A DNA stretch of 63,702 nt, counting the filler, from Nemertoderma westbladi (Eukaryota > Animalia > Xenacoelomorpha): assembly GCA_032718475.1 (NCBI GenBank). It is 4 parts of 4 records of this genome, joined end to end, with 100 filler letters (N's around TTAATTAATTAA, not from the genome) between each part and the next. Parts side by side here need not be neighbours in the genome. Positions count along the whole stretch, not along the records: positions 53,850 to 63,702 come from JAUCBJ010000996.1; 3 more parts are not named here. One strand, written 5' to 3'. Every line of letters starts with the position of its first letter. The first letter of the stretch is position 1. This document shows, in pieces, positions 9,423 to 63,290 of the stretch. A model generated the notes under the pieces. That model was given only the letters and a program-made list of their open reading frames with translations, was not told where the DNA came from and did no database searches. A program made the translations under genes and the position numbers.

Positions 9423-12280
9423 GTTTAGCTATACGGTTGAATGCCTACTGCTATAGTTACAGTTAAAGCAAGTCTAGTAATTCAGTATGACCGTTGGCCT
9501 AGTACCGTTAATTTATTACAGTATATTAGAATACCGGTATACACTTATAATATATAGAAGTATTGTAAACTAGTTTTGTCACAGAGTACCGGTATATAAT
9601 TTTAGCACAAATATATATAAATATATAATAGGCCTATCGTGAATACCGGTATGCAGCTTACACTTATAGTATATATAAGTATAATTATAAACTATAATTA
9701 ATTACAGAATACCGGTATGATTTCAGCCCAACTTTATAGAAATAAATATAATAGGCCTATCGTGGATACCGGTATATCAATTATTTAAATAATTGAATTT
9801 CTGAATTTTAAAGGTTACTTAGTTACTTTAACTTACTTTATTACCGTTATTTAAGCAGTAGTCCAACTGATATTGAGACCTAGTTGTTGTATAGCAGGCC
9901 TACTATTTATAAATCGTTTGAGTTGATTTATAATATATATATACCCGTTTAAAATGGGTTTTGTCAATATTTGAAATAAATGTTATTATTTCTGGGGGGA
10001 GTCACTACACAGAAGCTGTACGCTCTCAGTGGAGTGCTACTTATTGGACACTAAAACAGATAATTCTAATTTACCTAAGTTACTTAATACTACAAATTAT
10101 GTACAAATTACGATACGGGTGAGATTAAATCTCTACTTAAACACAACAAAAATATTACGTACGAAATTTTAGGGTAATTTTACAGGAAGTCTACAAACCA
10201 GCCTAACAAAGGGTTAGAATTCTGGTTATTACAACGGACAGGGTACTACGGTATTTGAAAATAATAAGTAGTAGTAAATATATTGCACTGTCCAGATAGG
10301 AAAAATACCACCGCCTGACGACCTATAGCCGTATCGCTATAGGTACTACGTTATGTAATACGGAGTGTTCCTACCTGGAAGTTAATTACCGCAGACTACC
10401 AGATCCAACGTGCCTATTAACCACTTTACAACACAATACACTGCCTACACACTAATTACTTTCGGAAAGCACTGTACACCAAACCCTAAATTAGGTACAA
10501 GTACTGGTACAACAAATAATCAGTAGTTAAATAAACTTGAACAGTTAAAAGAACCACGGCATCTGCTGGAGTGACCGGCCTACGCCAAGCAGCCCGTGTA
10601 GTACCGGGGTTAATTTAACTATAACGGTATGTGTAACAGGCACAATTACTGTAGGAATAAACTTGGGGACATGAATGTTGCGAATAATCGCATAAACTCT
10701 GAATAATAAATATTACGCTACCCGTACAGAATACTCAAACAAAATACAAACCAAACGCTGGCAGACTACCACCAAGCCTAAGTAAACTACAGTATGTGTA
10801 GATTCCAAAATGGTTAGTTAGTATGCGTTCTAACACGGTAGTACGACTTATTCTTTAAGAGGGGATTGACCTTACAGCTATGGCTGCCCCAACTTACTAA
10901 CTGGCACTTTATCAGACAAACTCTACACACGCAGCAATCTCTTCAGACCTAATAATAGCTAGACAACAATCCAGCCTACAAAATATCTGAGTAATAACTA
11001 TTACGGTACCTGAACAGACCACACAAACAAACACAGGCTAAAACGTTGGCAGAATACTGTCAAGCCTAAATAAACTACAGTATGTGCAGATTCCAAAATG
11101 GTTAGTTAGTATGCGTTCTAACACGGTAGTACGACTTATTCTTTAAGAGGGGATTGACCTTACAGCACTGGCTGCCCCAACTTACTAACTGGCACTTTAT
11201 CAGACAAACTCCACACACGCCGTAATCTCTCCAAACCCAACACCAATCTGACAACAGTCCGGCCTACAATTATCTGAACAATCTGAGCAGACTTATACGT
11301 CTTCAGCTCAATATTAACTTACATGTAAATAAAACCGACAGAAATAAGTAAAATCTCAATAAAAGACCAGGGCGGCCGTTCCCTGATTAAGTATTAAGAC
11401 CTACCGGTATACAATAATCAAAATCGAATAATACTAATGTACTTATACTGGAAGTACCGGTTAGGACAGTTGGGCGTACAGACCTACAGCAGTACCGATT
11501 CTGGCAGTTGGGCCTACAGACCTACAGCAGTACCGATTCTGGCAGTTGGGCCTATGGACCTACAGCAGTACCGATTCTGGCAGTTGGGCCTACGGACCTA
11601 CAGCAGTACCGATTCTGGCAGTTGGGCCTACGGACCTACAGCAGTACCGGTTCAGGTTTACCGGTCGACCGGTACTTTCAACTTTATTGCTTACTGCAAT
11701 AAAGACAATAACTGTTATTTTACGCGCTTTTGAAGACCTTTAGCAGTTTAACCTGCCAAAATTTATATGTCTTTTGGTTTATAAATAGACTTTAGAAATT
11801 AACAAATATTTAATACCAATAAACACAACATTAGCAGAAGCCAGCCTAGTGCGCGTCCATTCACCCGCTGGATATACCCGGGAGACTGGATTCTGAGGGC
11901 TTAGATTATTATTGCAGTGTAAGCTTACTGTATTATTCGATTGATCGTTAATAAATAATTTCTGACTAATATTATTCACTTTCGGGAAATATTAACAGTT
12001 CCTTTAGGACGTGGCGCTCTATCTAGGTAAACAGAGATATGACTTGTACTAAACACAACGGTAAGTCGGTAAGGCTTATGATTCACGTATGAGGCGCATT
12101 CTTTAGGAAATGCTTAGTTATCAGCCACAATCATGCACACTACCGGTAACACACAATACTGATCACTAATTTGCCGACCGTCAATGAATTTTATCATATA
12201 TAAAGAGAACAGCAACTGACTCATGTAGTGCTTATCAAATAGCATTAAATTCACTACAAACCACAATAGTATAAGTCATA
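9423..12280 (-). mobile_element. Long 5' leader and probable 5' LTR (~11768-12280) of the BEL/Pao element
   Basis: From ~9890 onward it is collinear with the paralog at 53850-56045, which stops at the equivalent point with a minus-strand TGTGACT start. ACA...TGGCAGGTTAAAC (PBS-like position) lies near 11745-11770. There is an internal ~285-bp direct duplication (~10745-11290). Confidence 0.65.
11467..11650 (+). repeat. 38-bp tandem repeat, ~5 copies
   Basis: Unit CAGTTGGGCCTACGGACCTACAGCAGTACCGATTCTGG starts at 11467, 11505, 11543, 11581 and 11619. Confidence 0.95.
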
Positions 12281-24383: not shown

Positions 24384-24483
24384 NNNNNNNNNNNNNNNNN
24401 NNNNNNNNNNNNNNNNNNNNNNNNNNNTTAATTAATTAANNNNNNNNNNNNNNNNNNNNNNNNNNNNNNNNNNNNNNNNNNNN
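24384..24483. other. Artificial contig spacer
   Basis: N44-TTAATTAATTAA-N44, which gives stops in all six frames. Confidence 0.97.
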
Positions 24484-26469
24484 CCTCACGCTCTCTGCGT
24501 TAGTTTTCCTCTCTCGCCTCGCGTTCTTTGCACTCGTTTTCCTCTCTCGCCTCACGTTCTTTGCACTCGTTTTCCTCTCTCGCCTCACGTTCTTTACATT
24601 CCGCCTCACGCTCTTTGCGCTCATTTTTCTCTCTCGCTACACGTTCCCTACGTTCCGCCTCACGCTCTTTGCGCTCATTTTTCTCTCTCGCTACACGTTC
24701 CCTACGTTCCGCCTCACGCTCTTCTTGTTCCTTCCTCCCTACTTCCTCACACACAATAAGGCTTCTCGCGGCCCTCTTGGCCCTCTCTCCGGTTTCTTTA
24801 ATCAATGCCATTTCCCTCTCTAGCAGCACTCTCCCCTCCTCTAACCGTCTACCTACTTCCCTTTGACCTTGCTCTATCAAATCGAGATGGTACGTGGCAT
24901 TTATCTCTCTCACCCGTCTTCCTTTCGCGGAGGATGTAGCAGACTTATCGGTTACGACGGATTCCCTCCACCTTCCCGACCTACTGACTTTCCCCCGCCT
25001 CCCGGAACTTCCTCCGACCGACGTGGCCGAATCCTCGGGGTTAACCTCGGATTCGCCCTCCTCAGGTCTCTCCCAACCCACTAATTTTACTCCCCGGGCA
25101 TCGACTAAGTATGGCCCTACGTACACTACGCTAGGTTCCATACCCCTACACCGCCATAAGTCACACAGTTCCTCGGCAACCCCTCTCGCTCTCTCCTTGG
25201 CCAGTTCTCTTTGCCCGAAGCGCATTAGATAATTAAAGTGTTTATTCGACTCACCTAGTCGTTTCCTCAGTCTCACCTCGTCTATCTTCGCCCCCTCTTT
25301 GGCCTCCTTTAGCAGTTTCTGAGTCGCGTTGTAGGCCCGTCGAAGTCGATCAGAAACCCCGACGTCCTCGTCGCCGACCTCTCTTCCGTCTCTCCGGGTC
25401 CGACGTCGTACCGGCGGCCCCACCGTCGCCATTTCGGTGGGCCGTTCGTCGCCCTCGGCCTGTAGCTGACCGGCGACATCGGTACCGACATCTCCTCCGT
25501 CTCTCCGGGTCCGGCGTCGTACCGTCGGCCCCACCGTCGTCGTTTCGGTGGGCCGCTCGTCGCCCTCGGCCTGTGGCTGGCCGGCGACATCAGTACGTCG
25601 ACCCACGTCCCGTGTCGACTCGTCTCCTTCTCCCTCCGTCTCGCTCTCTCCTTGTCTTGGCTCGACCTCGGGTTCCAGACGGCCCCCCTCATCCTGAACT
25701 GCCGGATGACCCGTTACCGATGGGTCCGGCGTTGTGGGCCTGTACCGCCTGGTTGCGGCCTCGCGGATCGTTAGCTCTTCGTCCGGGGTCCGCGTCGGCG
25801 TCGTCTCTCCCGACTGACTCATCTCACTCGCATAGATTGGTGGCTGGTAGTCACTGAGTTTAGTTAGCTAGGGCGGCAGCTCTGAGTTCAATTACTGTCA
25901 GGTGGCTGCTAGGTTTCAATTACTGTGACGGGATCCAGATGGGATCCCGGTTTATCCGGTTTTGTCAGTTCACGTGTCCCCGCCGTGTATGAAGAGTAAA
26001 AGAGTTTCGGTTGTTCGATGTGTATAATGTTTGGGTATATAGATATAGATACGGTATAACGGTGGATAAATTATTGTATATGGAAGGCGGGAGACGGTAA
26101 TTGAAGTCCCGGTACTTCCCTAACTAAACTATTGTAAACTACAGTAACACCAGTAACTAGCACTGAGATAACTGAGTAAATGATTACTGCCAACTGGCTA
26201 TATTGCACGGGTTGGCCTTGTTACTCTACCTAATCGATGCCTTTCCCCCCTCTGATTGGTTGATACCCTTGTTGGCGCCCTTTGGAGTGTTCCCGTTCAC
26301 TCCACCTGTTCTCTCTCTGTTAGGGGTTTGGCCCCTGACCCTCATTGTGTGTTTCTCCTTCCCATTTTGTTGGGGTGACACGAGTGATTGATTATCCAAT
26401 TTCGTGGCCCCCAATATTGCTTATCGGCTTACTTTACGGTTTGGGTTAGCGGGATTGAATAAGCTAACA
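24484..26469 (-). mobile_element. Paralogous LTR element: 5' LTR (25924-26469) and Gag-like ORF 24500-25822
   Basis: Same LTR termini as 23068-23662. The 440-aa ORF shares TP.RTPD..LTIREAATRRYRPTTPDPS and LGESNKHF.YL.RFGQ with that copy, followed by an E/R/K coiled-coil repeat. Confidence 0.7.
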
Positions 26470-32787: not shown

Positions 32788-33797
32788 CACTGCCAATATC
32801 AAAGCTTAGAAGTGTCTATCATTCAACCTCCGGAGATAGCTGAAAGTGGTAAAGAGAGCCGCTTTGTCTAGTGGTTGAGTTGTATTTCCCTTCCCCTGAC
32901 CTATCTTACAACAACGATACTCCCCATAGGCTAATGTTAAATATGCAAAGTACACACTATTGGCTTTACTCAACATCTGGACACATTAACTATACCATAC
33001 GGTAAAGGTATCCCTGCTTGTGTAAAATAGGCCCGCCAACACGTTGACTGAGCCTCAACAAGTAGTTGGGATGCTAAGGCGTAATCTGATTTTATTCGGA
33101 TGTCAAACTTTTAATAATTTTATTTAAATTATTGCGCGAACTTTTTAGATCTAGCAATTTTACCATTTCCATGGTATAATAAATATAATTTATAATTAAT
33201 ATTAATATCAATATGCCAAGAGGTTAAATTTATTACAAACCGCCACTAAACTCATAAGGGTCTGTTAATTCCTGTCTGTAGGATGTTATGTCATTTATTT
33301 TTCGTAGCGGTAGCGATATGGATTGTGACATGTTGCGGAATCTGCTTGGAGAGTGTAATGTGCTTTGTGGGTGTTATATTTAAATACGGAACTTGTGTGT
33401 TTCAGTAAAATACAGCATTCAACATCACAGTTTATCTTCAATATTACAGTTTATCTATGTCGGGAAGGGAGGGGGGGGGGGGGGGGGGGCAATGGCCCGA
33501 ACGGATATTTAACTACACAATGAGATACAGCGTGTTAGGCAGTAAGTGGGCTGCTAGGAATAAGTGCAGGAATAAGTGCATGGGAATAAGTGGGAATCAG
33601 TTGAAGAGGGTCAAAGGGGATATAACTCGACATGCTACTAATTTATAAGTTTCACTTCGATTCATTGATTGATTTGGTTTGTGTTGCATTAAAATCAGAT
33701 CCACTGAAAACATTAATAACCTGAAAATCAATGTATTTAATCAGTTACAAATATATATAGTTCACTACAAAATACAACAATTTTGTTACCGGTAACT

Positions 33798-35303
33798 TTA
33801 AGATTTATGAACAGAATTGATATGGGTGTTTAGGTAGCCTTGCCGACTGAATTCTTTATGACAATAACCGCACTTATGTTTGATATCCTTATGTATAGAG
33901 TCGAAATGCCGTTTAAGGTCGTGTTTGTAACGGAATTCTTTATTACAATAACCGCACTTATGTTTGATATGTTTATGTATAGAGTCGACATGTTGTTTTA
34001 GTACGTGTTTGTAACTGAATTCTTTATTACAATAACCGCACTTATATTTAATATCTTGATGTATAGAGTCGACATGTTGTTTTAGTTTGTCTTTTTTAGC
34101 AAATGATTTTCCACAATCGGAGCAGCTATACTTCATGATACCTTTGTGGACAAAGTTAACGTGGGTGTTTAGACTACTTTGCCGGCTGAATTATTTATTA
34201 CAATAACCGCACTTATGTTTTATATCTTTGTGAATGTATTCGATATGTTTTTTTAGTTCGACTTTTCTAGCAAATGATTTTCCACAATGAAAACAGTTGA
34301 ACTTGATATCTTTGTGGGAGTAGTTGATATGGGTGTTTAGATTCGATAGCTGACTGAATTCTTTATTACAATAACCGCACTTATGTTTGATATCCTTATG
34401 TATAGAGTCGACATGTTGTTTTAGTTTGTCTTTTTTAGCAAATGATTTTCCACAATCGGAACAACTATACTTGATGATACCTTTGTGGGCAAAGTTAATG
34501 TGGGTGTTTAGATCTCCTTTCTGACTGAATCCTTTATGACAATAACTGCACTTATATTTAATATCTTGATGTATAGAGTCGACATGTTGTTTTAGTTTGT
34601 CTTTTGTAGCAAATGATTTTCCACAATCGAAACAGTTGTACTTGATATCTTTATGAAAGTAGTTCACATGGGTGTTTAGACTCCTTTGCTGGCTGAATTC
34701 TTTATTACAATAACCGCACTTATGTTTGATATCTTTATGGGTAGCGTCAACATGCTTCTTTACATAATTTTTTATTTTAAACAATTTCTCACAATAATCG
34801 CATTTATACTTATTCTCTACGTCTTTATGAACGGATTCTATATGTCTATCTAAATTTCCTTTGTTATTAAATAATTCATTGCAATGCAAACAGGAACTGG
34901 TGTCTGAAGAAGATACCAACTCCCCAACAGTTTCATTAGAACTACCGGACTCTGTTGTTGCACAACTGATTGTTGGTTCTGTACCTTCAGTTCCAATGGG
35001 CCTATCATACGAACAGTCTGCGCTGTCATTTTCCCGTTTTTCAACAATAAAAGAATCTCCAGATGGTTCATAAGAAATATCTTCGTCATCTAGTACAGGG
35101 ACAACATCTACTCTACCGAACAAATTGTTGTGATCTTCGATGGGAGATGATCCGTAAACGCACTTCCCTTGATTAACATCAAGATAATAGGGGGTGGAGT
35201 CTGTTGGTTCTCCCTTTATAATCATAGAATCTGTTTGTTCTTTCTTTATAACTATACCGGCACCAGATGATTTCTCTTTCAATAAATTTATATGTTGATC
35301 CAT
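33798..35303 (-). pseudogene. C2H2 zinc-finger array gene (13 fingers) with a GAA>TAA nonsense codon in finger 9
   Basis: ORFs 34191-35309 and 33798-34136 are in frame. Repeats are CxxC-x12-Hx4H with an HKDIK(Y/H)KC linker. Acidic N-terminus with IKKE/IKGEP. No introns within the coding sequence. Confidence 0.85.
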
Positions 35304-35833
35304 TATCAAATCTTCAATAAATATTAATCAATAAATTAAATACAGGTGGCAGTAGTTTTAGGTATGTTAAGCTCTTCACTAATATAAATTTCATGCGATG
35401 TAAATATAATAAATAGATTATATAAGGGCGTTCAAAAGTTGCATGTCGCTGTACGGAATGGAACATGTTATAGTGACAGTGACAAGCAAATGGAACCAAA
35501 AGAAAACTATCACTACTACAGTACCTGTACCAGCAGTACCTACAGTACCAGTACGATTCGAGAGTAAAGGTTTAGGTGATTTATTAAATATGTTATTGGC
35601 GATTCAATTAAAGAGACAGAGTGTGCTACGTACGGTCGCGGTTGTATGAAACTACGAAAGTTCCTATGTAGCAAACTTCGCCCGCGTTTGAAGTAATTAA
35701 TTACCGGTACCTAATACTTAAAACAAAAACTCAAGTTCGCGTAGCTGATTATGAAACTGTAACCTGTAAAGCTAGTCGCTACAGACATTGTCAATACTGC
35801 TAACTTTGAAGGTCGTTTTCGCTTGGTTGCTAT

Positions 35834-36235
35834 GGGGCCGTCCAAGTATGACGTCAGCACTTTAGGGGGGGGAGGGGGGTTGGGAAAATCTGATGACGTG
35901 CTGATGATGGGAGGGGAGGGGGTCAGCCAAAATCTGACGTCAGCATATATTCATTTATAGGTGCTAGAAGAGATATAGCAGAAGAGTAAATAGCTTGCCT
36001 ATTTTAATTGTTCGAAGCCCGCGGATGCCGGAGGCCCGTAGCACGACCTTCTGTTTCAGATTAATCCTAAGCTAATGATTGTTAGATGATAATATAATAG
36101 TTTATTACAAAATTTTTTTTTAATCTGATTTAGGGGGGGGGGGGGGGTCAACGCCTATCTGATGACATCTGATTTAGGGGAGGGAGGGGGTCAACATTTT
36201 GGGGAAAAGTGCAGACGTCATACTTGGACGGCCCC
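35834..36235. mobile_element. MITE with 3-bp TAT target duplication (Zator- or PIF/Harbinger-like)
   Basis: TIR GGGGCCGTCCAAGTATGACGTCAGCACTTT / AAAGTGCAGACGTCATACTTGGACGGCCCC, with tat on both sides. Confidence 0.85.
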
Positions 36236-37781
36236 TATGGTATTTTCAAAAAACTAAATATGCCATTAACTTCATCATATCAAAAATAGTAATCTTCAAT
36301 AAATTTTAACTAATCATATCTACAGATATACTATAAGAGCTGTTGCTATGGCAGTTTCCTCCGTTGCTATGTTTAAGACCCTCTAAAAAATCAGCTCAAC
36401 CGTTTGGTGAAGTCTACCCAATTTGTTATAATGTCCGATATCAGTACTAAACATCTATATGGGGCTGGGGTAGCTCAGTCGTATAAAAACACTTTACAGG
36501 GTCATAGACTGGAGCCTGTATTACATATAGAAACACCTAGATTTATAAACATTGAGGCAGAAAACAACAGTTGGACATTTTTTTTACCGACGAAAATACG
36601 AAATTAAACATCATGATTATTTAAATATTTCCGTTGCTATGTTAACCCGAGCGGGTTTTATAAATTGCAGAAATAGATAACAATTCAACCAGTATGTAGG
36701 AGTGTGGAACAATTCAACCAGTGTGGATACACTGCGATGTACCGGTACTAAACTAGACTTTAAATGATACCGCCTGAACTCTGAAACTGCAAGCTTGACG
36801 ATGAGTAGGTGTGGCATTCAAGGCGATAAATGCTCCGTTAGATGGAAACCACAATGAGACTAAACGACAAAACGAAGTTTGGACTTCGTCGTCTTCATTC
36901 TGAGTTTATTGGACATCAGTCTTCCATTCCGGGTTTATTTGGACTCGGCGACTTTGTTCTCGGGTTTACTTTTACTCCATGTGCACCTGCCATATTAATG
37001 TTCCACCGAGCATTTTTCGCCGCCACATCGTATTCATCGTGAAGCCTTCAGTTAGTCGGAATCGTTAATATGAGTAGTCTAGTCTAGTACAGTAGTACCG
37101 GTACAACGCAGTGCATTCTACTGAAGTACTGGCTAAATTGTTATCAATTCTGAAATTTAAAACTCCTTAAAGTTTAAAACTCCTGGCAACGAACGGTACG
37201 GCAACGGTAGTTAACTATGTCGTTTTCGTTTGAATTTTCGCTAAACAAAGTAGCAAAGCATAGTTTCTGCCTCATTTTTAATAAATCTAGGTGTTTCGAG
37301 ATGTTTCCGGCCTTTATCAAACTCGTTGTTTATTCTAGCTGTAGATGCTTCCAGGTATTAGAACGTTTGAACGACAATTCAGCCATTAATTATCGGGTAT
37401 AACTTTTCGCCGTATCCGTATCCGTATGCATTTGCCGTATCCGTATGCACATACGCGTGGATTCCTATGGAGAATAATCCGTATGTGATTTTAAAGATTA
37501 GGCATTGCGGACCAGTAAGAAGTGCACAACACACATGCAGTGCAGACTGAAGACAGGTAGACCTACTTAAAGCTAAGTGATTTAAAGAGTGTGGCTGCCG
37601 CTAACCTATGTCAAATAAACATTGTAGGTCCAGGATGAGTATGACAGATGATGTCCTTCAGTCCCGCTGTGTTGCACTCGCTGACACGTGGTTTGACTAA
37701 CTGGCACTAGGTTGGTTTTGTTGGCACTTTGGCTGCATAGGGCCTGCTATGGTCAACTAAATACTGGCCCCGATTATATAT

Positions 37782-38418
37782 TACTACTACTGTACTACTA
37801 CGTCGAGAGAACTCGGACAGTGGAAATGAGATCCTTCCAGGCTTCCCGATTCTCTATAGTTGTCGCAATTTCGTTTCTCCCAAGTTCGGTATCCCTTTCA
37901 AGTTGATCTATATATGTTATGGCCGGTCGTCCACGACTACGCTTTCCATGAGTTGGTTGCCAGAAAAGTAGATCTGGTATGACCTCGTCTTTACTTCGCC
38001 AGCAGTGCCCACTGAATCTTAATCTGCGTTCACAGAAGGTGGTTGATACAGGTGGTATTGTACCATAAAGCTCGGCGGTTTGTCATGTGTTGTCTCCAGC
38101 TGATGTTTAGGGCTGCCCTTAGTAGTCTTGTGTAGCAACCATCAATTCGTTGTTCAAGTGATTTAGTCAGTGTCCAGGTCTCACCCCCATATAAAAATAC
38201 ACTTTCCACTGTGGCTCGAAAGAACTTAGTCTTCAGGTGCCTGGAGAGATCTGATTTCCAGATGGTATCCATTTTTGATAGAGCTACCCAAGCCTTTGCT
38301 TTCCTAACTTCTATGTCCTTTTTGCTACTCCCCTATCCATGATCCAAGGTACTGGAAGTCATCGACCTTCCTTAGTTGATTATTATCAATGGTTGTCAAG
38401 TTTCCATCAACATTAAAC
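37782..38418 (-). mobile_element. RTE-clade LINE, 5'-truncated (copy 2)
   Basis: IWKSDLSRHLKTKFFRATVESVFLYGGETWTLTK...DGCYTRLLRAALNISW, with a (GTA)n tail. Confidence 0.9.
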
Positions 38419-38633
38419 CTTGTTTTGGCTCTTTGCCATCTGAGTAGCATGGCGGTAGCCATGCGGTAGCCATTACATGAATTCCAGAATACCTATATCA
38501 GAGGGGGTGTCATGCTGTCATATGGATACTCATGGAGGCGGATGGTCTGACTCTTCCATGGCGACGAAAGCAGGTCGCGACCCCCTTATCCCTCACATCC
38601 AATGCCAATCCAGCCAATCATGTACTCCATCTA

Positions 38634-39838
38634 CAGTCCCGCTCACCAACAGAGTGCCATCGGATCCGATCGGATCCAACACACTCCGACAGCTTCAAAC
38701 AAGCACAATGCTAACCTACGGAGATTTAGTACTGTTTGATTCTGTTGGAGAAAATATTTCCAACAAGTTTAGTCTGTTGGAGCCCATCTGAATCTGTCTG
38801 AAATCCGTCTGAAAGTGTTTGAAATTTCTGTTGGATGTTGTTGGAAGCTATCTGAAGTTGTTTGAAGTTGTCTGAAGTTGTCTGAAACTGTTTGAAGTTG
38901 TCTGAAGATGTTTGACGCCATCGGAATTTGTTGGAATTTGCCAATGCTTTACAAAAGCGTAGTTCATTAACGAAATGTCAATCACTTTAACTCTCAATTT
39001 GAAGTGATTGTGAGGGTGTGCTATTGTCAATTATAAACCGAAACAAAGATTTGTTTCATTTAACAATTTTTATTTACATAATTATGTCGTTAATTATATC
39101 AATTAATTAACTAGAATGCATAAACGAATAATAAATTCCTATAATATAAATTCCGATAAATGAATATAATAACACCAACACGTTTTTAATTCCTTAATTT
39201 AATTAGAAATGTAAATAATGCTATAAATATATTAGTTTCTTTGACGTAGGGCACTAAATACTGCACATAAACAGATATAAACACAAACAGATTAAGCAAA
39301 CAGAAATATAATTACAATGAGTGAAAAAAATATTTTTGGTTAATTTTATTAGTTGTGTTGAAAGAGCATCGAAATGAAAAGGTTTGCACGTAATACTTCT
39401 AGCCCAACTATTTTTTCGCGCACCTACCCTATTTGAGTAAATTACATTCACACACTCAAACCGACCTCACTAATGGGCTGTTCCTTCAGGTCAGCTTAAG
39501 TTACAGTGGGAATGTTCAAGGGCGCCGCCAGTGGCCAGTCCACTCTGTCGTTATTGTGGCTTTATGAATGGAGTTCCTTTAGTAGTTTCAAACGCTTTCA
39601 TTCTATCTGCGCGCAAGAAGATGGGAGTTGAGTTGGGGTTGCGGTTGAGTGTGGGTGGAGTGATTGACAGGTTGTTGGAAGTTGTCTGATTCTGTTTGAA
39701 ACTGTCTGAATCTGTTTGAAACTGTCTGAATCTGTTTGAAGTTGTTGGACTGTTGGAGTTTGTCTGAAAGTGTTTGAAGCTGTTGGATCCGATCGGTTCA
39801 GATCGGATCCGATGGCACTCTGTTGGTGAGCTGGACTG
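38634..39838. mobile_element. Tc1/mariner-like non-autonomous element
   Basis: ta|CAGTCCCGCTCACCAACAGAGTGCCATCGGATCCGATC ... GATCGGATCCGATGGCACTCTGTTGGTGAGCTGGACTG|ta. Internal 10-bp GT(T/C)TGAA repeats. Confidence 0.85.
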
Positions 39839-39845
39839 TATATCA

Positions 39846-40812
39846 ATGTTAACGAAACACTTCCTTTCTATGAGGCCGTTGTCGGTAATATTTAAAGACG
39901 TCATCAATATCCATAGCAACGGCGACGCATCGGCACAGGGCACTATACTGAAACTAACGGTGGACCACCCAATAGCGAAGGAATTCCCACCCTCGAGAAC
40001 TTATCTTATAAACTTCCTCAAGTTTCTCTTTAATAATGTTACCGAAGTTAGCGACATGGTGTATGAAAGATTCTCTCCGCTTATGGCTCAACCCGATTCG
40101 CAGACCAACTGCTTCTGGACTTACGTTTTACCCTGCGACTGCTGCGTGACTATTCGCGAGAACGTTGTCACCCTATCTGGGGGAACTACCGGTTTGGTTA
40201 GCTGGCCAGCGGGTTTCTCGCTGACGGAATGGTTGAGTGCACGACTCCATCTAACGGACGGTAATAGAATCCTAGAGTTGGGATGCGGCGCGGGTTTGTC
40301 CGGTATAATTACGTGTATGACGTCACTTCCTGCGGGGTACACGTTTACGGAGTGCGAGCTTAAACGTTCTGGACAATTTACGCGAGAATATTCGCATTAA
40401 CTGCCTCAACTCAAAGGCTTTTCAATGCAAACAGAATCATCAGCTTCAAAAGGATTACATTAGAGTGCAGCCCCTTGATTGGAGTTTGTCTAATTGCGAT
40501 CAAGCGGTTGACAGATGTATACGATATTATTGTCGCCACTGATGTGACCTTTGACCCCGAGAGTCTACCAGGTCTAGTTAACCTACTCCATATTATCTGT
40601 TATCAACCAGCAACTCAGCCAATCCATCTCGCTGCGCTTATATTTCTTGCACTATTAGAAATCCAACTACTCATACATTGTTTACTCAGTTGCTGGACAA
40701 CGCCGGTCTTATTACTGTTTACGAAAACATTGACAGACCCGAGTTGTTCTATTACGACAGGAATCAACAATTTGCTGTCCTTAACATAAAAATGAGCTTC
40801 CCTTTCAAATAA
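39846..40812 (+). pseudogene. EEF2KMT: Protein-lysine N-methyltransferase EEF2KMT (FAM86) homolog, intronless, about 3 frameshifts
   Basis: FAM86-like TVDHPIAKEFPPSRTY; GTTGLVSW; SAM motif ILELGCGAGLSG. Then in shifted frames NVLDNLRENIRIN...LDW, DIIVATDVTFDPE and YISCTIRNPTT, collinear with known EEF2KMT motifs. Stop at 40810-40812. Confidence 0.85.
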
Positions 40813-40843
40813 TATTTCTGCAAATTTTGTTATTCTGTATATA

Positions 40844-41345
40844 TAGGGTGAGTGAGGGAGACTTGAGAGTTATAATCGCTCTAAATAACAGATAAATAAA
40901 TTTTTCAATGCCGTTTTAACTTTTTTAAATTACATTTATGATTGCTACTGTATCATTATGTGAGAGTTTGAGATTTTAAACTCTTAAACTTTTTTTATTA
41001 AACCAATTATACGTATTTTCGAAAAAGCGTCAAGTCTCCCTCAATGGGGGGAGACTTGACACCTAGGGTGGGAGACTTGAACCCCACCTCGCATACTTGT
41101 AAATTCGTTCAAAAATGCAGAGGAAGTGTAATAATTACATGTTCAACATGTCTATTTTCTAGTAGAGCAAAAAAAAATTCAAAAAATGCGATTGTTAAAT
41201 TGTTAAAATATTAATCCAAAATTTTATACAAATTGTCTATTTTCTAGTAGAGCAAAAAAAAATTCAAAAAATGCTATTGTTAAATTGTTAAAATATTAAT
41301 CCAAAATTTTATACAAATTTAGGTGGTCGTTCACATGGTTCTCCC
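40844..41345. mobile_element. One end of a TIR DNA element (unclassified)
   Basis: Starts TAGGGTGAGTGAGGGAGACTTGA. GGGAGACTTGA recurs in both orientations at ~41030-41080. There is an ~88-bp tandem duplication at ~41150-41320. Confidence 0.45.
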
Positions 41346-46680: not shown

Positions 46681-46780
46681 NNNNNNNNNNNNNNNNNNNN
46701 NNNNNNNNNNNNNNNNNNNNNNNNTTAATTAATTAANNNNNNNNNNNNNNNNNNNNNNNNNNNNNNNNNNNNNNNNNNNN
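46681..46780. other. Artificial contig spacer
   Basis: N-TTAATTAATTAA-N. Confidence 0.97.
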
Positions 46781-53749: not shown

Positions 53750-53849
53750 NNNNNNNNNNNNNNNNNNNNNNNNNNNNNNNNNNNNNNNNNNNNTTAATTA
53801 ATTAANNNNNNNNNNNNNNNNNNNNNNNNNNNNNNNNNNNNNNNNNNNN
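53750..53849. other. Artificial contig spacer
   Basis: N-TTAATTAATTAA-N. Confidence 0.97.
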
Positions 53850-56669: not shown

Positions 56670-56847
56670 CTTATTAAATCAACTACAGAGTATTTTAATG
56701 TAAAAGATAATAAAAATAACGGGGCAATTCAGCAAAGGCTTTTACAGTTGGGTTTGAGTAAACCAGACAGGTTTGAGTTAGTAAGAGTGAGGTAAGAGAA
56801 AAGGTACCCAGTTTGAGAAACGGTATCTAAAATGAGATAGGGACTGT

Positions 56848-58467
56848 ACTGTAAGTCTGTAATACGCCATAGACAGTGCAGCCGTAATACGTCATTGAAT
56901 ATCAAACTACTGTAAGTCTGTAGTACGCCATAGACAGTGCAGCCGTAATGAGTCATTGAATATCAACCTACTGTAAGTCTGTAGTCCGCCAGAGACAGTG
57001 CAGCCGTAATAAGTCATTGAATATCAAACTACTGTAAGTCTGTAGTACGCCATAGGCAGTGCAGCCGTAATAAGTCATTGAATATCAAACTACTGTAAGT
57101 CTGTAGTACGCCATAGACAGTGCAGCCGTAATAAGTCATTGAATATCAACCTACTGTAAGTCTGTAGTACGCCATAGACAGTGCAGCCGTAATAAGTCAT
57201 TGAATATCAAACTACTGTAAGTTTGTAGTACGCCATAGACAGTGCAGCCGTAATAAGTCATTGAATATCAACCTACTGTAAGTCTGTAGTACGCCAGAGA
57301 CAGTGCAGACGTAATAAGTCATTAAATATCAAACTACTGTAAGTCTGTATTCCGCCATAGGCAGTGCAGCCGTAATAAGTCATTTAATATCAAACTACTG
57401 TAAGTCTGTAGTACGCCATAGACAGTGCAGCCGTAATAAGTCATTGAATATCAACCTACCGTAAGTATGAAGTACGCCATAGACAGTGCAGCCGTAATAA
57501 GTCATTGAATATCAAACTACTGTAAGTTTGTAGCACGTCATAGACAGTGCAGCCGTAATAAGTCATTGAATATCAACCTACTGTAAGTCTGTAGTACGCC
57601 AGAGACAGTGCAGCCGTAATAAGTCATTGAATATCAAACTACTGTAAGTCTGTAGTCCGCCAGAGGCAGTGCAGCCGTAATAAGTCATTGAATATCAACC
57701 TACTGTAAGTCTGTAGTACGCCAGAGACAGTGCAGCCGTAATAAGTCATTGAATATCAACCTACTGTAAGTATGAAGTACGCCATAGACAGTGCAGCCGT
57801 AATAAGTCATTGAATATCAAACTACTGTAAGTTTGTAGTACGTCATAGACAGTGCAGCCGTAATAAGTCATTGAATATCAACCTACTGTAAGTCTGTAGT
57901 ACGCCAGAGACAGTGCAGCCGTAATAAGTCATTGAATATCAAACTACTGTAAGTCTGTAGTCCGCCAGAGGCAGTGCAGCCGTAATAAGTCATTGAATAT
58001 CAACCTACTGTAAGTCTGTAGTACGCCAGAGACAGTGCAGCCGTAATAAGTCATTGAATATCAACCTACTGTAAGTCTGTAGTACGCCAGAGACAGTGCA
58101 GCCGTAATAAGTCATTGAATATCAACCTACTGTAAGTCTGTAGTACGCCAGAGACAGTGCAGCCGTAATAAGTCATTGAATATCAACCTACTGTAAGTCT
58201 GTAGTACGCCAGAGACAGTGCAGCCGTAATAAGTCATTGAATATCAACCTACTGTAAGTCTGTAGTACGCCAGAAACAGTGCAGCCGTAATAAGTCATTG
58301 AATATCAAACTACTGTAAGTCTGTAGTCCGCCAGAGGCAGTGCAGCCGTAATAAGTCATTGAATATCAACCTACTGTAAGTCTGTAGTACGCCAGAGATA
58401 GTGCAGCCGTAATAAGTCATTGAATATCAACCTACTGTAAGTCTGTAGTACGCCAGAGACTCTGTAG
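56848..58467 (+). repeat. 61-bp satellite, ~26 copies
   Basis: Unit CTACTGTAAGTCTGTAGTACGCCAGAGACAGTGCAGCCGTAATAAGTCATTGAATATCAAC. Confidence 0.97.
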
Positions 58468-59466
58468 TTATTATTATTGTTTATTTCAGGCTATACGGCC
58501 CATAGTAAAATATATATACAGTATATATACACTAACACAACTGATACAAGACTTATTAGTAATATAATTAAATAGCACATATTATTATCCTAACTAAATA
58601 TTCTACTGTATTGATGACAGAAATTAAATGTAGTACTTAAAATATCGTTATTGGATTTAGATACTCTTCTCTCGAGACTACCCAGAGACGCATGATGAAT
58701 GTGTACGAACATTGGTAGGTTGAGCCTACCAAATGTGAATGACATGCTCGTCGGTTCATCATTAGTCATTCTAGGGACATTAAATAATAAACGAACAGCA
58801 TTGTTATATGCAACCGATAGCTTATTAAACACTGCACCAGTATAATTACGCCGTGCCCACAATGCATTACAATACACTGGAGTTATGTAAGCTTTAAATA
58901 AGCACTTTTCAACATTATCTGAGCATCTTCCAAATTTTCTAACGAGCATATTCGCCCTAGCGTATATCGAGCACGTCTGTGATTTAATATCAAAGTCATA
59001 CTACAATGCAACCAGTGTCCTAGGTACTTGAATTTTTCTACTATGTCGATTGGTCTGTTATATAGATAGACCCTACCTACTTCCAAACCTTTGCAACATT
59101 GAGGCACATAATATAAACATTTAGTCTTTACTGTATTAAACAAAATTGAATTAGCATTTGCAAAAGATACTGCCTTATTAATTAGTATTTGCAGGCCTAT
59201 CATTGAGTTTGACAATAAGCACAAATCATCTGCGTACATGATATGGTTTATACGTAAACCTCCTAAACAACAACCTACACACGTGTCAGTGAGTTGTTTA
59301 CTTAAACCGTCAACGTATACAATAAATAATGTCGGGCTTAATAAACCACCCTGGCGGGTACCGTTAGATACCGTAAACGTTGAGGATTTATTTCCATCCC
59401 AATTGACACACATTTGCTGCGTCCTATACCAAAAAGCTAACAACCGTACAATATATACCGGGAAAC
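58468..59466 (-). mobile_element. 5'-truncated LINE (RTE-X-like RT C-terminus) inserted in the satellite
   Basis: NGTRQGGLLSPTLF, HIMYADDLCLL, FKYLGH, LFKAYITPVY and VAYNNAVRLLF, with a frameshift. AATAAA and (TAA)n tail at ~58468-58486. Confidence 0.85.
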
Positions 59467-60066
59467 ATCAACCTACTGTAAGTCTGTAGTCCGCCAGAGG
59501 CAGTGCAGCCGTTAAGTCATTGAATATCAACCTACTGTAAGTTTGTAGTACGTCAGAGACAGTGCAGTCGTAATAAGTCATTGAATATCAACCTACTGTA
59601 AGTCTGTAGTACGCCAAGACAGTGCAGCCGTAATAAGTCATTGAATATCAACCTACTGTAAGTCTGTAGTACGTCAGAGACAGTGCAGCCGTAATAAGTC
59701 ATTGAATATCAACCTACTGTAAGTCTGTAGTACGTCAGAGACAGTGCAGCCGTAATAAGTCATTGAATATCAACCTACTGTAAGTCTGTAGTACGCCAGA
59801 GACAGTGCAGCCGTAATAAGTCATTGAATATCAACCTACTGTAAGTCTGTGGTACGCCAAGACAGTGCAGCCGTAATAAGTCATTGAATATCAACCTACT
59901 GTAAGTCTGTAGTACGTCAGAGACAGTGCAGCCGTAATAAGTCATTGAATATCAACCTACTGTAAGTCTGTAGTACGCCAGAGACAGTGCAGCCGTAATA
60001 AGTCATTGAATATCAACCTACTGTAAGTCTGTGGTACGCCAGAGACAGTGGAGCCGAAATAAGTAA
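59467..60066 (+). repeat. 61-bp satellite, continuation (~10 copies)
   Basis: Same unit as 56848-58467. Confidence 0.97.
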
Positions 60067-60256
60067 TTGCTGATGAAATCAACGTCGAAACATTGGGAAT
60101 GCCAGTATAGTACAGTAGTATATCAAAGCATAGTGGGGCTCATGAAACATAATTATCTCAATGGCTTTAATTTTATACAAAATACAATATAATTAAATAG
60201 TAACATTAGCATATAAGAAACTTAGTTTTCGTTTTTATTTTTATTCAATTTTATTA

Positions 60257-60460
60257 TTTCGAAGTGTTGACATGGCTGTTTCGAAGTGTTGACATGGCTG
60301 TTTCGAAGTGTTGACATGGCTGTTTCGAAGTGTTGACATGGCTGCTTCGAAGTGTTGACATGGCTGTTTCGAAGTGTTGACATGGCTGTTTCGAAGTGTT
60401 GACATGGCTGCTTCGAAGTGTTGACATGGCTGTTTCGAAGTGTTGACATGGCTGCTTCGA
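60257..60460 (+). repeat. 22-bp minisatellite, ~9 copies
   Basis: Unit TTTCGAAGTGTTGACATGGCTG. Confidence 0.97.
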
Positions 60461-60764
60461 ATCAAATATTGCAGTATAATTGTCCTTGAGCACTCGGTTA
60501 AAATACTCATTCCAATTTGCAATAGTTTGGACTACCATATGTGTAGATATGAAATGTACCTAAAATAATTACTGTACAGTATTGCCGAGATATTTATGAA
60601 TAGGCCTACACACACATATACATTTGTACCCCAAATAATGACTGTATCTTTAAAACACAATTTACTTTCTAAAATGAATACTGATTATCAAAAAATAATA
60701 ATGAATTGTCTATTATTTGTAATAATCAAAAGGAATTTTGCACATTTGAGGAGTGCTGCACTAA

Positions 60765-62471
60765 TCAGTCGCTAGACTTTTTAAAAACTACAGACTTTGC
60801 TGAATCAACTACACCTACACCAGAAGCATTTTTGGAAAATGTTACAAACCTTGCTGGTAAAATTTCATTCCTGTTATTTTGAATATCCAATTTTCGTGAG
60901 CAGCTTCCCAATGTGATGGGACGAAAAATGCCTACAAAGGCGGTATTCAATTAATACAATATATTAAGAGTATCTTTATTTTCTGCAACAGAATAGTTTA
61001 ACTTGCTTAATTCAACTTTCCCTCCTAAAGCAGATCTATAAAAAATATCATAAAGATCTTCCGAAACATGGGATTTTCTCCAACCTAATTTGGTGACATG
61101 AAGATTGAATTTATCAGTCATGGGTAAAATATACTGAGGATCATCGAGGTAGTCCTCAATGGAAATATTACTCGGTTTCCTAGAATTTAATTCCTTAGAA
61201 GTAATATGTTGGACCCAGTCCCCTGTTGTGGCAGTAGCTAGCATTTCTTTGAAAATTCGTTTGCCATTCGAAGTAAAAATTCTGTCATGTCCTAAAGAGC
61301 AATGCACCATACTAACATGCCTCAATTTCTCATCAGATCCCTGTGTTTTTTCTTTTATTGCCACAACTTCATTACTATAAGAATCTACCAAAATTGAAGT
61401 CAACTTAGTTTTTTCTTGGTAAGTAAATCTATCTGGATATGTATGAAGCAAATATTCTATAATTGTTTCCAATATATTTGGGTAGAAACATCCGTCATTA
61501 GGCATGATATGTGCGTGCATTTTCTGTCCATCTATGTTTAATAGAGTTTTTTGTTTCAAGAAGGAATCATCAACCCAATGTACTTCAGTATCCAATTTGT
61601 TCCAAATCTCATATCCGTTCTTCAACTTTTCCAGATCATTAGAAAAGCAAAAGGCCAAACGCCCTTTTCTCTCTAAAATGGCTTTTCCTAAACTCTTTCT
61701 AATTAGAAGATCGATATAGCTTAAATTTTCCAATGAATGTCTCTGCAGATCGACCATCATTTTACTCGTAGGAGTAACATCTTTTCCGGCAAAAATTTTT
61801 TGTCTTAAAAACTCAAAGCCAAGTTTTGTGAATGTAGGTATTGCCTTAAGTGTGTTCAAATTAAATGATAATGGTATAGTAAGACTATCATAATCAGTGC
61901 TTTCGGGATTTCTAGAATCATAAATATTATATGAAAAAGCTCGTATCATATCGAATACACTATATACATCATATTGTGTAGGGTGTTCATGGGCTTGCAG
62001 GCCACTCCTATCTAAAATCGATAATTCGCCATCATGACAAAATACAACTTTAGTTGACGAATTGTTGTGAAGGATTTCAAATGCCTTTATTAAAGCATTT
62101 AAGCCTCCCGCGGTGTAGGCTACTTTTTTACCCTTTGGTATAGTTGTAGGCGGGGTATATAACAGTTCAACTGTATGAGGTTGTGGGAATTCCTTTTGAA
62201 AACATTTTACTCGCATTGTTGTCAATGTTTTTGCCAATTCATTATCAAGAATGTGCATTTTTGAAATGCTAAAATCTATTTCTGATATTAATTTCTTTGA
62301 TTTCTTGTAGCTTAATTTCTTTTCTTCTGACCAATCATCTGTAAAAATACACGAGTGACTGTAATGTTTTATAAAATACTGATCACCTGTTCTATTTAGT
62401 AATTTTATCTTGTGTTGTGCTGCCTTTTTTTGAAAAAAATTCGATGCCGTTCTACAAGTGATAATTGACAT
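60765..62471 (-). CDS. Intronless ORF (506 aa, plus 61 in-frame codons after one TAA); putative divergent FAD-dependent oxidoreductase (DAO/glycine-oxidase-like fold)
   Basis: Long open frame in AT-rich DNA with no TE motifs. Ordered DAO-like elements: KVAYTAGGLNALIKAFEIL..KVVF (degenerate Rossmann), SILDRSGLQAH, KGRLAF, MPNDGCFYP, TKLTSILVD..VVAI and VHCSLG. The function is an inference. Confidence 0.55.
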
Positions 62472-63069
62472 TATGGTAAAATAGATGACTGCAAATTACG
62501 ACTGTCGGATAATAATACTAAATTTATAATATAAATGAGTAGAGAAAGTTAAGGCGATGTGATGTAATATCAGAGGAGAGAAGCCAACAGAGAGAAGATA
62601 ATTCTATAAGTTACCAAGTAAGGTTGAACGGATTTCAGTTAATTCAGTTATTGTCATTAATATAACATCAATTGAATCAAAATTACCTGCATAAATATAA
62701 AAGAAAGAGTAATTAACATCAATCTATACACATTGTTTTGTATTACTGTATAGCGTAGTCAATAATTATATTGTACTCAAGTAATGCAATAATTTTAAAT
62801 CAGGGTGGTGTAATTTTGCAATTTCTTGTGTCTGTAATTTCTTGTGAAATACAATTATATTTCAAGATAAATTCATACTTTTGTTGAAAAAATATAATAG
62901 CAAATATCCCAAATTGAAGATTAAAATTTAATTGTTTTAATTTTAATTTTTGAAAATTGAAATTAAAACAAATATGAAATAATCTTATTGTTTATAAGTT
63001 TTATCATCCATGAGATTGTATAAATTATAAGTATTTTAAACATGACTTAGGATGATCCAACTCTATAGC

Positions 63070-63290
63070 AAATGGAGCTGAAAAAATGAATTTTTAACCC
63101 TACATGGATTAAATAAACTCAAAACACCAAAGGAATTAGTTACACGCATAGGAGACGACATTGTAACTATTACAGATCCATCTCAAATAGCTTCTGCACT
63201 AAATACTCTTCTCATCCATTATTGGTTCAAAATTAGCAGCTGATATTCCTAAATCCAGGCAATCACCAACGCATTACATTAAGAATACCC
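63070..63290 (+). mobile_element. Degraded CR1/L2-group LINE ORF2 linker fragment
   Basis: Translates to ITDPSQIASALN.. / IGSKLAADIPKS..PTHYI, the conserved pre-RT linker. Confidence 0.6.

What the first reader, a model, noticed from the sequence alone, without database searches (positions are those of the whole stretch)
60765..62471. Intronless orphan ORF resembling a highly diverged DAO-family flavoenzyme: candidate horizontally acquired gene, possibly targeted to mitochondria
Seen: the only long non-TE, non-zinc-finger ORF in the window. It has no introns, and its frame continues for 61 codons past a single TAA. Known: DAO/glycine-oxidase enzymes have a beta-alpha-beta GxGxxG start, a GAS..xG motif, a 'DG.vdP' motif and a 'V..I...v.gV...d.VV.a.G' segment. 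Inference: all of these appear in order but degenerate (TAGGLNA instead of GxGxxG), after a ~110-aa extension whose first 29 residues are basic/hydroxylated with no acidic residue, like a transit peptide. I do not recognise it as any standard animal gene. That suggests a bacterial- or virus-derived gene, or a lineage-specific enzyme or pseudoenzyme.
Basis: partly seen in the sequence, partly recalled or inferred. Interest (0 to 1): 0.75.

Follow-up and report, generated by a model that had tools for sequence, protein, structure and literature searches.

The report
Hidden glycine-oxidase-fold family, broken allele
This animal gene belongs to a small unnamed protein family, also found in Trichoplax, two protists and environmental chlamydiae, that is predicted to fold like glycine oxidase and likely makes glyoxylate from glycine inside mitochondria; the sequenced copy carries an early stop that other copies in the species lack.

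Summary
The ORF is real (minus strand, 62471 to 60951, 506 codons, frame open 61 codons further). It is not an orphan. Nearest relatives are an unnamed ENA protein (52%), Trichoplax (48%), Abeoforma (45%) and Rhynchopus (43%); all others, Parachlamydia included, are about 30% or less. The AlphaFold model (pLDDT 89) matches glycine oxidase (Z 25.2, rmsd 3.3, 327 residues) although Pfam misses it. The TAA is a segregating nonsense allele: a Lys codon stands there in all four full-length homologs first aligned and in public contigs of two samples, and the lost 61 residues hold four invariant family residues, so this allele is likely dead. Recent transfer from bacteria or viruses is not supported; an ancient transfer stays open. 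Function clue: in 400 Chlamydiota genomes, 34 of 38 with malate synthase have isocitrate lyase, and the 4 without it have this gene beside malate synthase (one clade, so one event). Another copy lies just upstream of a Rid imine hydrolase. Best reading: an FAD amine oxidoreductase yielding glyoxylate, imported into mitochondria. No activity, flavin binding or location has been shown.

The parts
60951..62471 (-). ORF as assembled: ATG to premature TAA, 506 aa
60765..62471 (-). full gene frame, 568 codons plus TGA; length matches homologs of 550-585 aa
60951..60953 (-). codon 507: TAA in the window; position 60953 is polymorphic, the other allele gives AAA (Lys)
   Evidence: table 3: other letter at depth 7.2 of 24.5 in X1, 51.7 of 51.7 in X2, 62.4 of 62.4 in X3; an X1 contig of 238 nt with no difference carries the TAA (depth 17.3)
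60768..60950 (-). 61 codons lost in the TAA allele; hold 10 of the 62 family-conserved columns, among them invariant R526, N532, G551, G553
   Evidence: structural match runs to residue 563
62352..62471 (-). leader, about residues 1-40: basic, no acid before residue 30, low pLDDT; candidate mitochondrial presequence (inferred)
62136..62351 (-). family-specific N-terminal part, about residues 41-112, confidently modelled, outside the glycine-oxidase match
60783..62135 (-). glycine-oxidase/DAO-type fold, residues 113-563, with a degenerate dinucleotide loop (T-A-G-G-L-N-A, 120-126) and an invariant G-x-Q-x-H-x-H motif (157-163)
62687..62716 (-). pyrimidine tract ending in CAG; candidate splice acceptor of a 5' UTR intron or trans-splice site (one 84-nt contig, weak)
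   Evidence: table 8 (X4 record 27 starts to align at 62686, first 30 nt unaligned)

Best explanation
This is a host nuclear gene of a small unnamed family predicted to have the glycine-oxidase fold, whose intact allele likely works as a mitochondrial FAD enzyme oxidising glycine or a related small amino acid to an imine that would hydrolyse to glyoxylate and ammonia, while the assembled allele carries an early stop and is likely inactive. Shown: frame, homologs, both alleles in public contigs, gene neighbours in chlamydiae. Predicted: the fold. Inferred: flavin binding, substrate, mitochondrial import, and that R526 binds the substrate carboxylate. Origin: most likely inherited in animals from at least the common ancestor with Trichoplax and lost from most lineages; the family's deeper history involves exchange between eukaryotes and intracellular bacteria, direction unknown.
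For: Fold: model pLDDT 89.0, pTM 0.88; the best six VIA entries are glycine oxidases or the related CmiS2, Z 25.2-24.1, top rmsd 3.3 over 327 of 368 residues; Foldseek ranks glycine oxidases first; all ten best Atlas clusters carry PF01266; one family fragment passes the Pfam DAO cut-off (28.1 against 27.9) and a more distant chlamydial relative scores 49.1 and aligns to the family profile at probability 95.9. Glyoxylate: of 400 Chlamydiota genomes, 38 have a strong malate synthase match, 34 of these have isocitrate lyase, and the 4 without it all have this gene head to head with malate synthase; three more genomes show the same pairing and no isocitrate lyase match. Imine product: one copy lies 17 bp upstream of a Rid-family gene; Rid genes cluster with FAD amine oxidases and hydrolyse their imines (PMC4433059, passages). 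Leader: 4 of 5 proteins of the window's clade have at most one acid and net charge of +2 or more in the first 25 residues, against 12 of 63 neighbouring chlamydial ORFs. Null allele. Host gene: GC3 0.28 against 0.30-0.35 for the zinc-finger and LINE frames; contigs without differences run from the gene into high-copy flanking repeats; its contig shares a repeat with 9888-12278.
Against: No sequence method ties the window protein itself to the DAO family: no DAO match in Pfam, none in NCBIfam, none to PDB flavoenzymes below E 2.6; structural identity is 10-13%. The Atlas first hit shared 165 and 159 of 256 features, under the 170 typical of same-family hits. The top Z-scores are near ties: iminodiacetate oxidase 23.4, proline dehydrogenase 23.3, sarcosine oxidase 23.0, D-arginine dehydrogenase 22.7, so fold does not give the substrate. 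The dinucleotide loop lacks the first and third Gly. The malate-synthase-linked proteins form one clade (100/100), so that is a single event, far from the animal clade; the Fisher p of 7e-5 overstates it. One of the four linked copies (G002) is split in two frames, G001 has a dehydrogenase gene in between, genomes are incomplete, and G233 has the gene without malate synthase. The Rid neighbour is one locus. The leader test is a crude count; secretion signals also pass it. The window copy departs from 12 of 62 conserved columns against 5-7 for its three full-length clade mates, so the gene may be decaying in this species. The RNA-like run covers only the 5' end.
Confidence: 0.5

Rival explanations
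1. Same fold and location, other chemistry: a membrane-associated, quinone-linked dehydrogenase for D-amino acids (DadA-like) or for a 2-hydroxy acid (glycolate to glyoxylate, or malate, as in LhgO and Mqo).
For: The family has an insertion at about residues 165-235 with a long helix (205-228) where DadA has a membrane-binding insertion (recalled, not tested). An Atlas cluster named D-amino acid dehydrogenase ranks third. Mqo and L-2-hydroxyglutarate dehydrogenase are among the Foldseek hits. Glycolate oxidation would also feed malate synthase.
Against: Amine oxidases fill the top of the VIA list; Mqo and LhgO are not among its 50 rows. Profile against E. coli DadA alone gave probability 0.1 (weak test). 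The Rid neighbour points to an imine.
Confidence: 0.25
2. The gene entered this animal lineage by its own horizontal transfer (from a bacterium, a protist or a symbiont), independently of Trichoplax.
For: Very patchy range: 46 representatives at E <= 0.001 among 1.84 billion, with Trichoplax the only named animal; intronless coding frame; bacterial members exist; the sister protein P0003 comes from a 2-kb ENA contig of unknown organism; the next clade out (P0013, P0019, P0025; 95/93) is unnamed and may be bacterial; grouping the five-member clade with chlamydial proteins is not rejected (AU p 0.114).
Against: Window + P0003 + Trichoplax form a clade (99; 97/99; 88) inside a 100-support clade with Abeoforma and Rhynchopus; identity falls from 43-52% to about 30% outside it; no viral relatives in four scans; host-like GC3; another host gene in the window also reads without introns.
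Confidence: 0.25
3. The gene is dying in this species: all copies are under relaxed selection and the TAA is one step of pseudogenisation.
For: The nonsense allele is the majority form in X1 (17.3 against 7.2); 19 of 28 codons with listed differences change the residue (only 30 of the 227 differences were used, mostly in the variable N-terminal part); 12 of 62 conserved columns changed; no cover of the coding frame in the RNA-like run.
Against: The Lys form is the only one seen in X2 and X3 (one sample); every invariant family residue is kept; no frameshift in 568 codons; the other allele has the homologs' residue at 311, 321 and 507.
Confidence: 0.3
4. Contaminant or chimeric contig, or the TAA is an assembly error.
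For: The window is a scaffold with three 100-nt spacer gaps; no single public contig spans gene and flanks; only contigs were available, no long reads.
Against: Three runs of two samples labelled as the same organism hold the gene at even depth with its flanks; contigs without differences bridge into host repeats; the TAA is held by a 238-nt contig at depth 17.3, though X1 may be the source sample; host-like composition and a shared repeat.
Confidence: 0.05

Closest known systems
Glycine oxidase ThiO (Geobacillus kaustophilus 4YSH, Bacillus cereus 7CYX, B. subtilis 1NG3/1RYI; TIGR02352)
   Same: Predicted fold over residues 114-563 (Z 25.2, rmsd 3.3, 327 aligned); an invariant late Arg in the G-S-C-S-R-K loop at the place in the chain of the W-A-G-L-R-P loop whose Arg302/308 contacts substrate (PMC3818420, passages; equivalence inferred from order, not superposed).
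   Different: 10-13% identity; about 200 residues longer (leader, N-terminal part, central insertion); A-G-G-L-N-A in place of GxGxxG; an invariant H-x-H motif; no TIGR02352 match; no thiamine genes recognised among the neighbours I scanned.
Pfam PF01266 (DAO) superfamily: sarcosine oxidase, D-arginine dehydrogenase, iminodiacetate oxidase IdaA, D-amino acid dehydrogenase DadA
   Same: Same fold at Z 20-23; best Atlas clusters; edge members reach the Pfam cut-off.
   Different: The window protein and its four closest full-length relatives have no PF01266 match even at E 10; no match to E. coli DadA.
Trichoplax hypothetical proteins RDD38813.1 (H2) and EDV21878.1/TRIADDRAFT_59532; Parachlamydia acanthamoebae F8L238
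   Same: Same family: 48% identity to Trichoplax over 532 residues, about 23% to Parachlamydia.
   Different: All are labelled hypothetical or uncharacterised; none has the stop; a search of six accession terms found no paper.

Membership tests
DAO / glycine-oxidase structural superfamily | FAD-binding plus substrate-binding two-domain fold | tested here: met
   Predicted model pLDDT 89; Z 25.2, rmsd 3.3, 327 of 368 residues of 4YSH. Model read with X at codon 507.
Pfam PF01266 DAO | Score above gathering cut-off 27.9 | tested here: not met
   No match for the window protein or P0003-P0007; met by fragment P0035 (28.1) and relative L016 (49.1) only.
DAO superfamily | GxGxxG dinucleotide loop after the first strand | tested here: not met
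   T-A-G-G-L-N-A at 120-126; G122 and G123 in 26 of 26 rows, first and third Gly positions replaced family-wide; strand-loop-helix is modelled.
DAO superfamily | Late Arg that binds the substrate carboxylate, followed by a Gly-rich helix start | tested here: inconclusive
   R526 in 29 of 29 rows, G551 and G553 in 28 of 28, inside the aligned range; no residue-level superposition was available. Absent from the TAA allele.
DAO superfamily | Binds FAD and oxidises an amine or hydroxy acid | not testable with these tools
   Needs protein.
Glycine oxidase ThiO (TIGR02352) | Score above 250.8 | tested here: not met
   No match for the window protein; 13.7 and 15.8 bits for P0035 and L016.
D-amino acid dehydrogenase DadA | Sequence similarity to E. 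coli DadA | tested here: inconclusive
   Probability 0.1 against one sequence; no NCBIfam match; DadA is not among the listed structural rows.
Mqo / L-2-hydroxyglutarate dehydrogenase | Closest structural neighbour | tested here: inconclusive
   Foldseek ranks 12 and 48; not among the 50 VIA rows.
Recent bacterium- or virus-to-animal transfer | Best relatives non-eukaryotic; gene nested in a donor clade | tested here: not met
   Best named relatives eukaryotic at 43-48%, others about 30% or less; AU p 0.0003 against window plus chlamydial rows; organism of the closest protein P0003 unknown.
Mitochondrial presequence protein | Basic, acid-free, amphipathic N-terminus that directs import | tested here: inconclusive
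   Composition fits, only two Arg, no R-x-[YF]-[AS] site, hydrophobic moment 0.40; no TargetP or MitoFates on hand.

The most novel reading that the evidence does not exclude
An unrecognised mitochondrial glycine-to-glyoxylate flavoenzyme family shared by a few animals, protists and intracellular bacteria. Most chlamydial members keep a presequence-like leader (9 of 13, several with an R-x-Y/F-A site) and would be sent into host mitochondria, while one chlamydial clade lost the leader (2 of 8 pass) and replaced isocitrate lyase beside malate synthase, giving a glycine-fed half glyoxylate shunt.
Probability: 0.15. Interest if true: 0.82.

Novelty: new variant of a known kind. Interest (0 to 1): 0.55.

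Why it matters
It gives a fold and a testable reaction to a family that every profile library I ran misses and that databases call hypothetical, including a Trichoplax gene. If the reaction holds, a few animals keep an old mitochondrial amino-acid oxidation route that most lost, and some chlamydiae feed malate synthase without isocitrate lyase. The null allele segregating beside an intact one is a natural loss in progress or a natural knockout. As a case of recent gene transfer into an animal, it is weak.

Tried and rejected
No whole genome is held, so copy number and synteny in the host were not tested. Pfam, NCBIfam and PDB sequence searches gave no DAO-family match for the window protein. 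A first model from 7 sequences was poor (pLDDT 46), though its hits were already glycine oxidases. BFVD gave only generic flavoproteins at 7-13% identity among the hits with E <= 0.001. Pattern scans of viral contigs, metagenome contigs and tblastn of plasmids found no relatives; pattern scans are insensitive. No RNA holder was listed; absence of X4 cover over the frame is no evidence. A second lay of reads at 33000-41300 was meant as a single-copy depth baseline and failed, because that stretch is all multi-copy; so I cannot tell two alleles from two or three paralogs at about 90% identity. A homolog search with the EEF2KMT-like frame to place the host found nothing; the host phylum is unknown. 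Stop read-through was dropped: the site is a plain single-base polymorphism and its context is TAT TAA TTG. The shorter loop near residue 490 is length-variable across the family, not a lesion. Tree notes: one search is a quick tree of 31 rows; one search left out fragments and the three longest rows and is rooted on one very long branch, so the root is unsafe; one search used 18 rows. G010 was not scored. The 63 control ORFs include about 7 family-like proteins, 3 of them among the 12 that pass. Literature searches found no description of this family; seen as listings, plus passages of PMC5169069 (says transfers are hard to detect in Trichoplax), PMC3641634 (chlamydial-origin genes in the Trichoplax assembly; this gene's number not in the main text, supplements not read), PMC3818420 and PMC4433059, and the abstract and outline of bioRxiv 10.1101/2022.08.30.505961. 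Earlier-finding look-ups by sequence and words were empty.

Full report
Observation. The feature lies on the minus strand: ATG at 62471, 506 codons, TAA at 60953-60951, then 61 open codons to TGA at 60767-60765. It is not the only non-TE, non-zinc-finger frame: a FAM86/EEF2KMT-like frame lies at 39768-40400. The window is a scaffold with three 100-nt spacer gaps; the gene's contig is 53850-63702. No whole genome is held.

Relatives. A search of the 90% clusters gave 4 proteins among 7993 candidates scored: an unnamed ENA protein, Trichoplax sp. H2 (with T. adhaerens in its cluster), the diplonemid Rhynchopus euleeides and a JGI protein. A profile over 1.84 billion representatives gave 46 at E <= 0.001, 23 at 1e-30 (the last rows include a likely false hit, P0050). 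Of 20 looked up, named ones were Abeoforma whisleri, an unlabelled EukProt protein and Parachlamydia acanthamoebae. Identity to the window protein is 51.6% (ENA), 48.5% (Trichoplax), 44.7% (Abeoforma fragment), 43.2% (Rhynchopus), then about 30% or less. In 400 Chlamydiota genomes, 11 matched, 6 of them at full length. Four viral scans and two metagenome scans were empty.

Fold. Pfam, NCBIfam and PDB sequence searches miss the window protein. With 32 sequences and X at codon 507, AlphaFold gave pLDDT 89.0 and pTM 0.88. The best structural matches are glycine oxidases: 4YSH, Z 25.2, rmsd 3.3, 327 of 368 residues, model range 114-563 (Foldseek agrees). Other amine oxidoreductases follow within 2-3 Z units, so the fold fixes the superfamily and not the substrate. 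The Atlas gave only PF01266 clusters, with shared-feature counts a little under the same-family norm. Sequence bridges exist: fragment P0035 passes the Pfam DAO cut-off, and a distant chlamydial protein with a DAO score of 49.1 aligns to the family profile at probability 95.9. The dinucleotide loop is degenerate across the whole family, not just here: G122 and G123 are in 26 of 26 rows, the outer Gly positions are replaced. Q159, H161, H163, R271, D326, S392, G394, N456, H458, R479, G483, R526, N532, G551 and G553 are invariant and all kept in the window frame. That argues for an enzyme family rather than a pseudoenzyme (inference).

The stop. The four full-length homologs first aligned have Lys at codon 507 and continue in register. 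Public contigs show both forms at 60953: the Lys form at depth 7.2 of 24.5 in X1 and as the only form in X2 and X3 (one sample); a 238-nt X1 contig without differences carries the TAA (X1 may be the source sample). The lost tail holds 10 of 62 conserved columns, including R526, G551 and G553, and is inside the structural match. R526 sits in a G-S-C-S-R-K loop, in the chain position of the W-A-G-L-R-P loop whose Arg contacts substrate in glycine oxidase (PMC3818420, passages); I could not superpose them. The assembled allele is therefore likely a null. A second form about 90% identical is present in X1-X3 (31 differences in 317 nt; 64 in 658); whether allele or paralog is open, since my depth baseline failed. 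Signs of relaxed selection are modest: 12 of 62 conserved columns changed against 5-7 in clade mates, and 19 of 28 listed codon differences are non-synonymous (30 of 227 differences used).

Host gene or contaminant. Depth over the gene is even and close to that of its immediate flanks; contigs without differences run from the 3' end into the flank (60466-60869) and from the 5' flank into a very high-copy repeat (62633-63064). GC3 is 0.28, like the zinc-finger (0.31-0.35) and LINE (0.30) frames, and the contig shares a repeat with 9888-12278 at 78-82%. Run X4, listed as DNA, behaves like RNA: zinc-finger coding depth about 400,000 against 5,000-11,000 on a LINE, the reverse of X1-X3. In X4 an 84-nt contig begins to align at 62686, directly after a pyrimidine tract and CAG, with 30 unaligned letters before it. 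That hints at a spliced 5' end. Against it: one short contig, and X4 cover stops after codon 8 with 25 unaligned letters, which I cannot explain.

Origin. Three trees group the window protein with the ENA protein and Trichoplax (99; 97/99; 88), inside a fully supported clade with Abeoforma and Rhynchopus. Forcing the window protein alone among chlamydial proteins is rejected (AU p 0.0003); forcing the whole five-member clade next to them is not (p 0.114). The simplest reading is inheritance in animals with many losses; separate transfers cannot be excluded because the range is very patchy, a diplonemid sits in the clade, and the organisms behind P0003, P0013, P0019 and P0025 are unknown. Lack of introns adds little: the EEF2KMT-like gene nearby also reads without them.

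Function from neighbours. In chlamydiae one clade (100/100) lies head to head with malate synthase A (G003, G004, G005, G364, G394, the split copy in G002, and G001 across a zinc dehydrogenase gene). Of 400 genomes, 38 have a strong malate synthase match and 37 a strong isocitrate lyase match; 34 have both; the 4 with malate synthase alone are G002, G005, G364 and G394, all with the linked gene; G001, G003 and G004 also gave no isocitrate lyase match. Malate synthase needs glyoxylate and glycine oxidase makes it from glycine (established knowledge), so the enzyme likely replaces isocitrate lyase there. This is one evolutionary event in incomplete genomes, and glycolate oxidation would serve as well. 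A second G002 copy lies 17 bp before a Rid-family gene, a pairing reported for FAD amine oxidases (PMC4433059, passages); the Parachlamydia-type copy follows an EamA transporter. Carrying this to the animal clade is inference.

Leader. At most one acid and net charge of +2 or more in the first 25 residues: 4 of 5 in the window's clade, 4 of 5 and 3 of 5 in two unnamed groups, 9 of 13 unlinked chlamydial members, 2 of 8 malate-synthase-linked members, 12 of 63 neighbouring ORFs; an R-x-[YF]-[AS] site (a recalled cleavage motif) occurs in 5 of 13 unlinked chlamydial members, 0 of 8 linked ones and 5 of 63 controls. The count is crude and start codons are guessed. It supports a presequence in the eukaryotic members and raises the idea that chlamydial members are host-derived or aimed at host mitochondria; C. 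trachomatis proteins with such sequences are reported (bioRxiv 10.1101/2022.08.30.505961, abstract).

Verdict. A real host gene of an unnamed, very divergent branch of the DAO/glycine-oxidase superfamily: it works like one by predicted fold, but fails the Pfam, ThiO and GxGxxG membership tests. I found no description in print (subscription journals and supplements not covered). New variant of a known kind; interest 0.55. The recent-transfer orphan reading is not supported.

Noticed in passing
window 38631-40789: FAM86/EEF2KMT-like methyltransferase gene that reads without introns, multi-copy (depth about ten times the DAO-like gene in X1) and broken here by a 1.2-kb insertion (joint 38631-39839 in all four runs) and a frame change near 40350-40400.
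   Followed up: partly
window 24384-24483, 46681-46780, 53750-53849: Three gaps of 44 N + a 12-letter all-frame stop spacer + 44 N: the window is joined from separate contigs.
   Followed up: partly
window 33798-35327 (-): C2H2 zinc-finger array split by one stop at 34191; member of a very large family, by far the deepest signal in the RNA-like run X4.
   Followed up: no
window 56847-60069: 61-bp satellite (26.5 + 10 copies) interrupted by a LINE reverse-transcriptase fragment at about 58460-59467; a 22-bp array follows at 60257-60461.
   Followed up: no
window 63028-63092: Short very high-copy element (depth 27,000-56,000 in X1-X3) whose loose ends look like a tRNA 3' half; possible SINE. ARAGORN found no tRNA.
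   Followed up: no
window 7278-9428 (-) and 24500-25867 (-): Open frames of 716 and 455 aa without a Pfam match; the first is in frame upstream of a DUF1759 (BEL/Pao-type) frame.
   Followed up: no
L013:1135-2439, L014:1024-2187, L015:1219-2442, L012:1477-2907; P0048: Degenerate relatives in chlamydiae that lack the H-x-H motif and the late Arg; three sit inside a glycosyltransferase run (GT9 before, GT2 after in L013). Candidate true pseudoenzymes.
   Followed up: partly
L016:742-2478: 579-aa chlamydial DAO-domain protein beside an aminotransferase; bridges this family to PF01266 and may represent a larger sister family.
   Followed up: partly
L017:885-2325 (G002): The malate-synthase-linked copy is split into two overlapping frames, while a second intact copy lies elsewhere beside a Rid gene.
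   Followed up: partly
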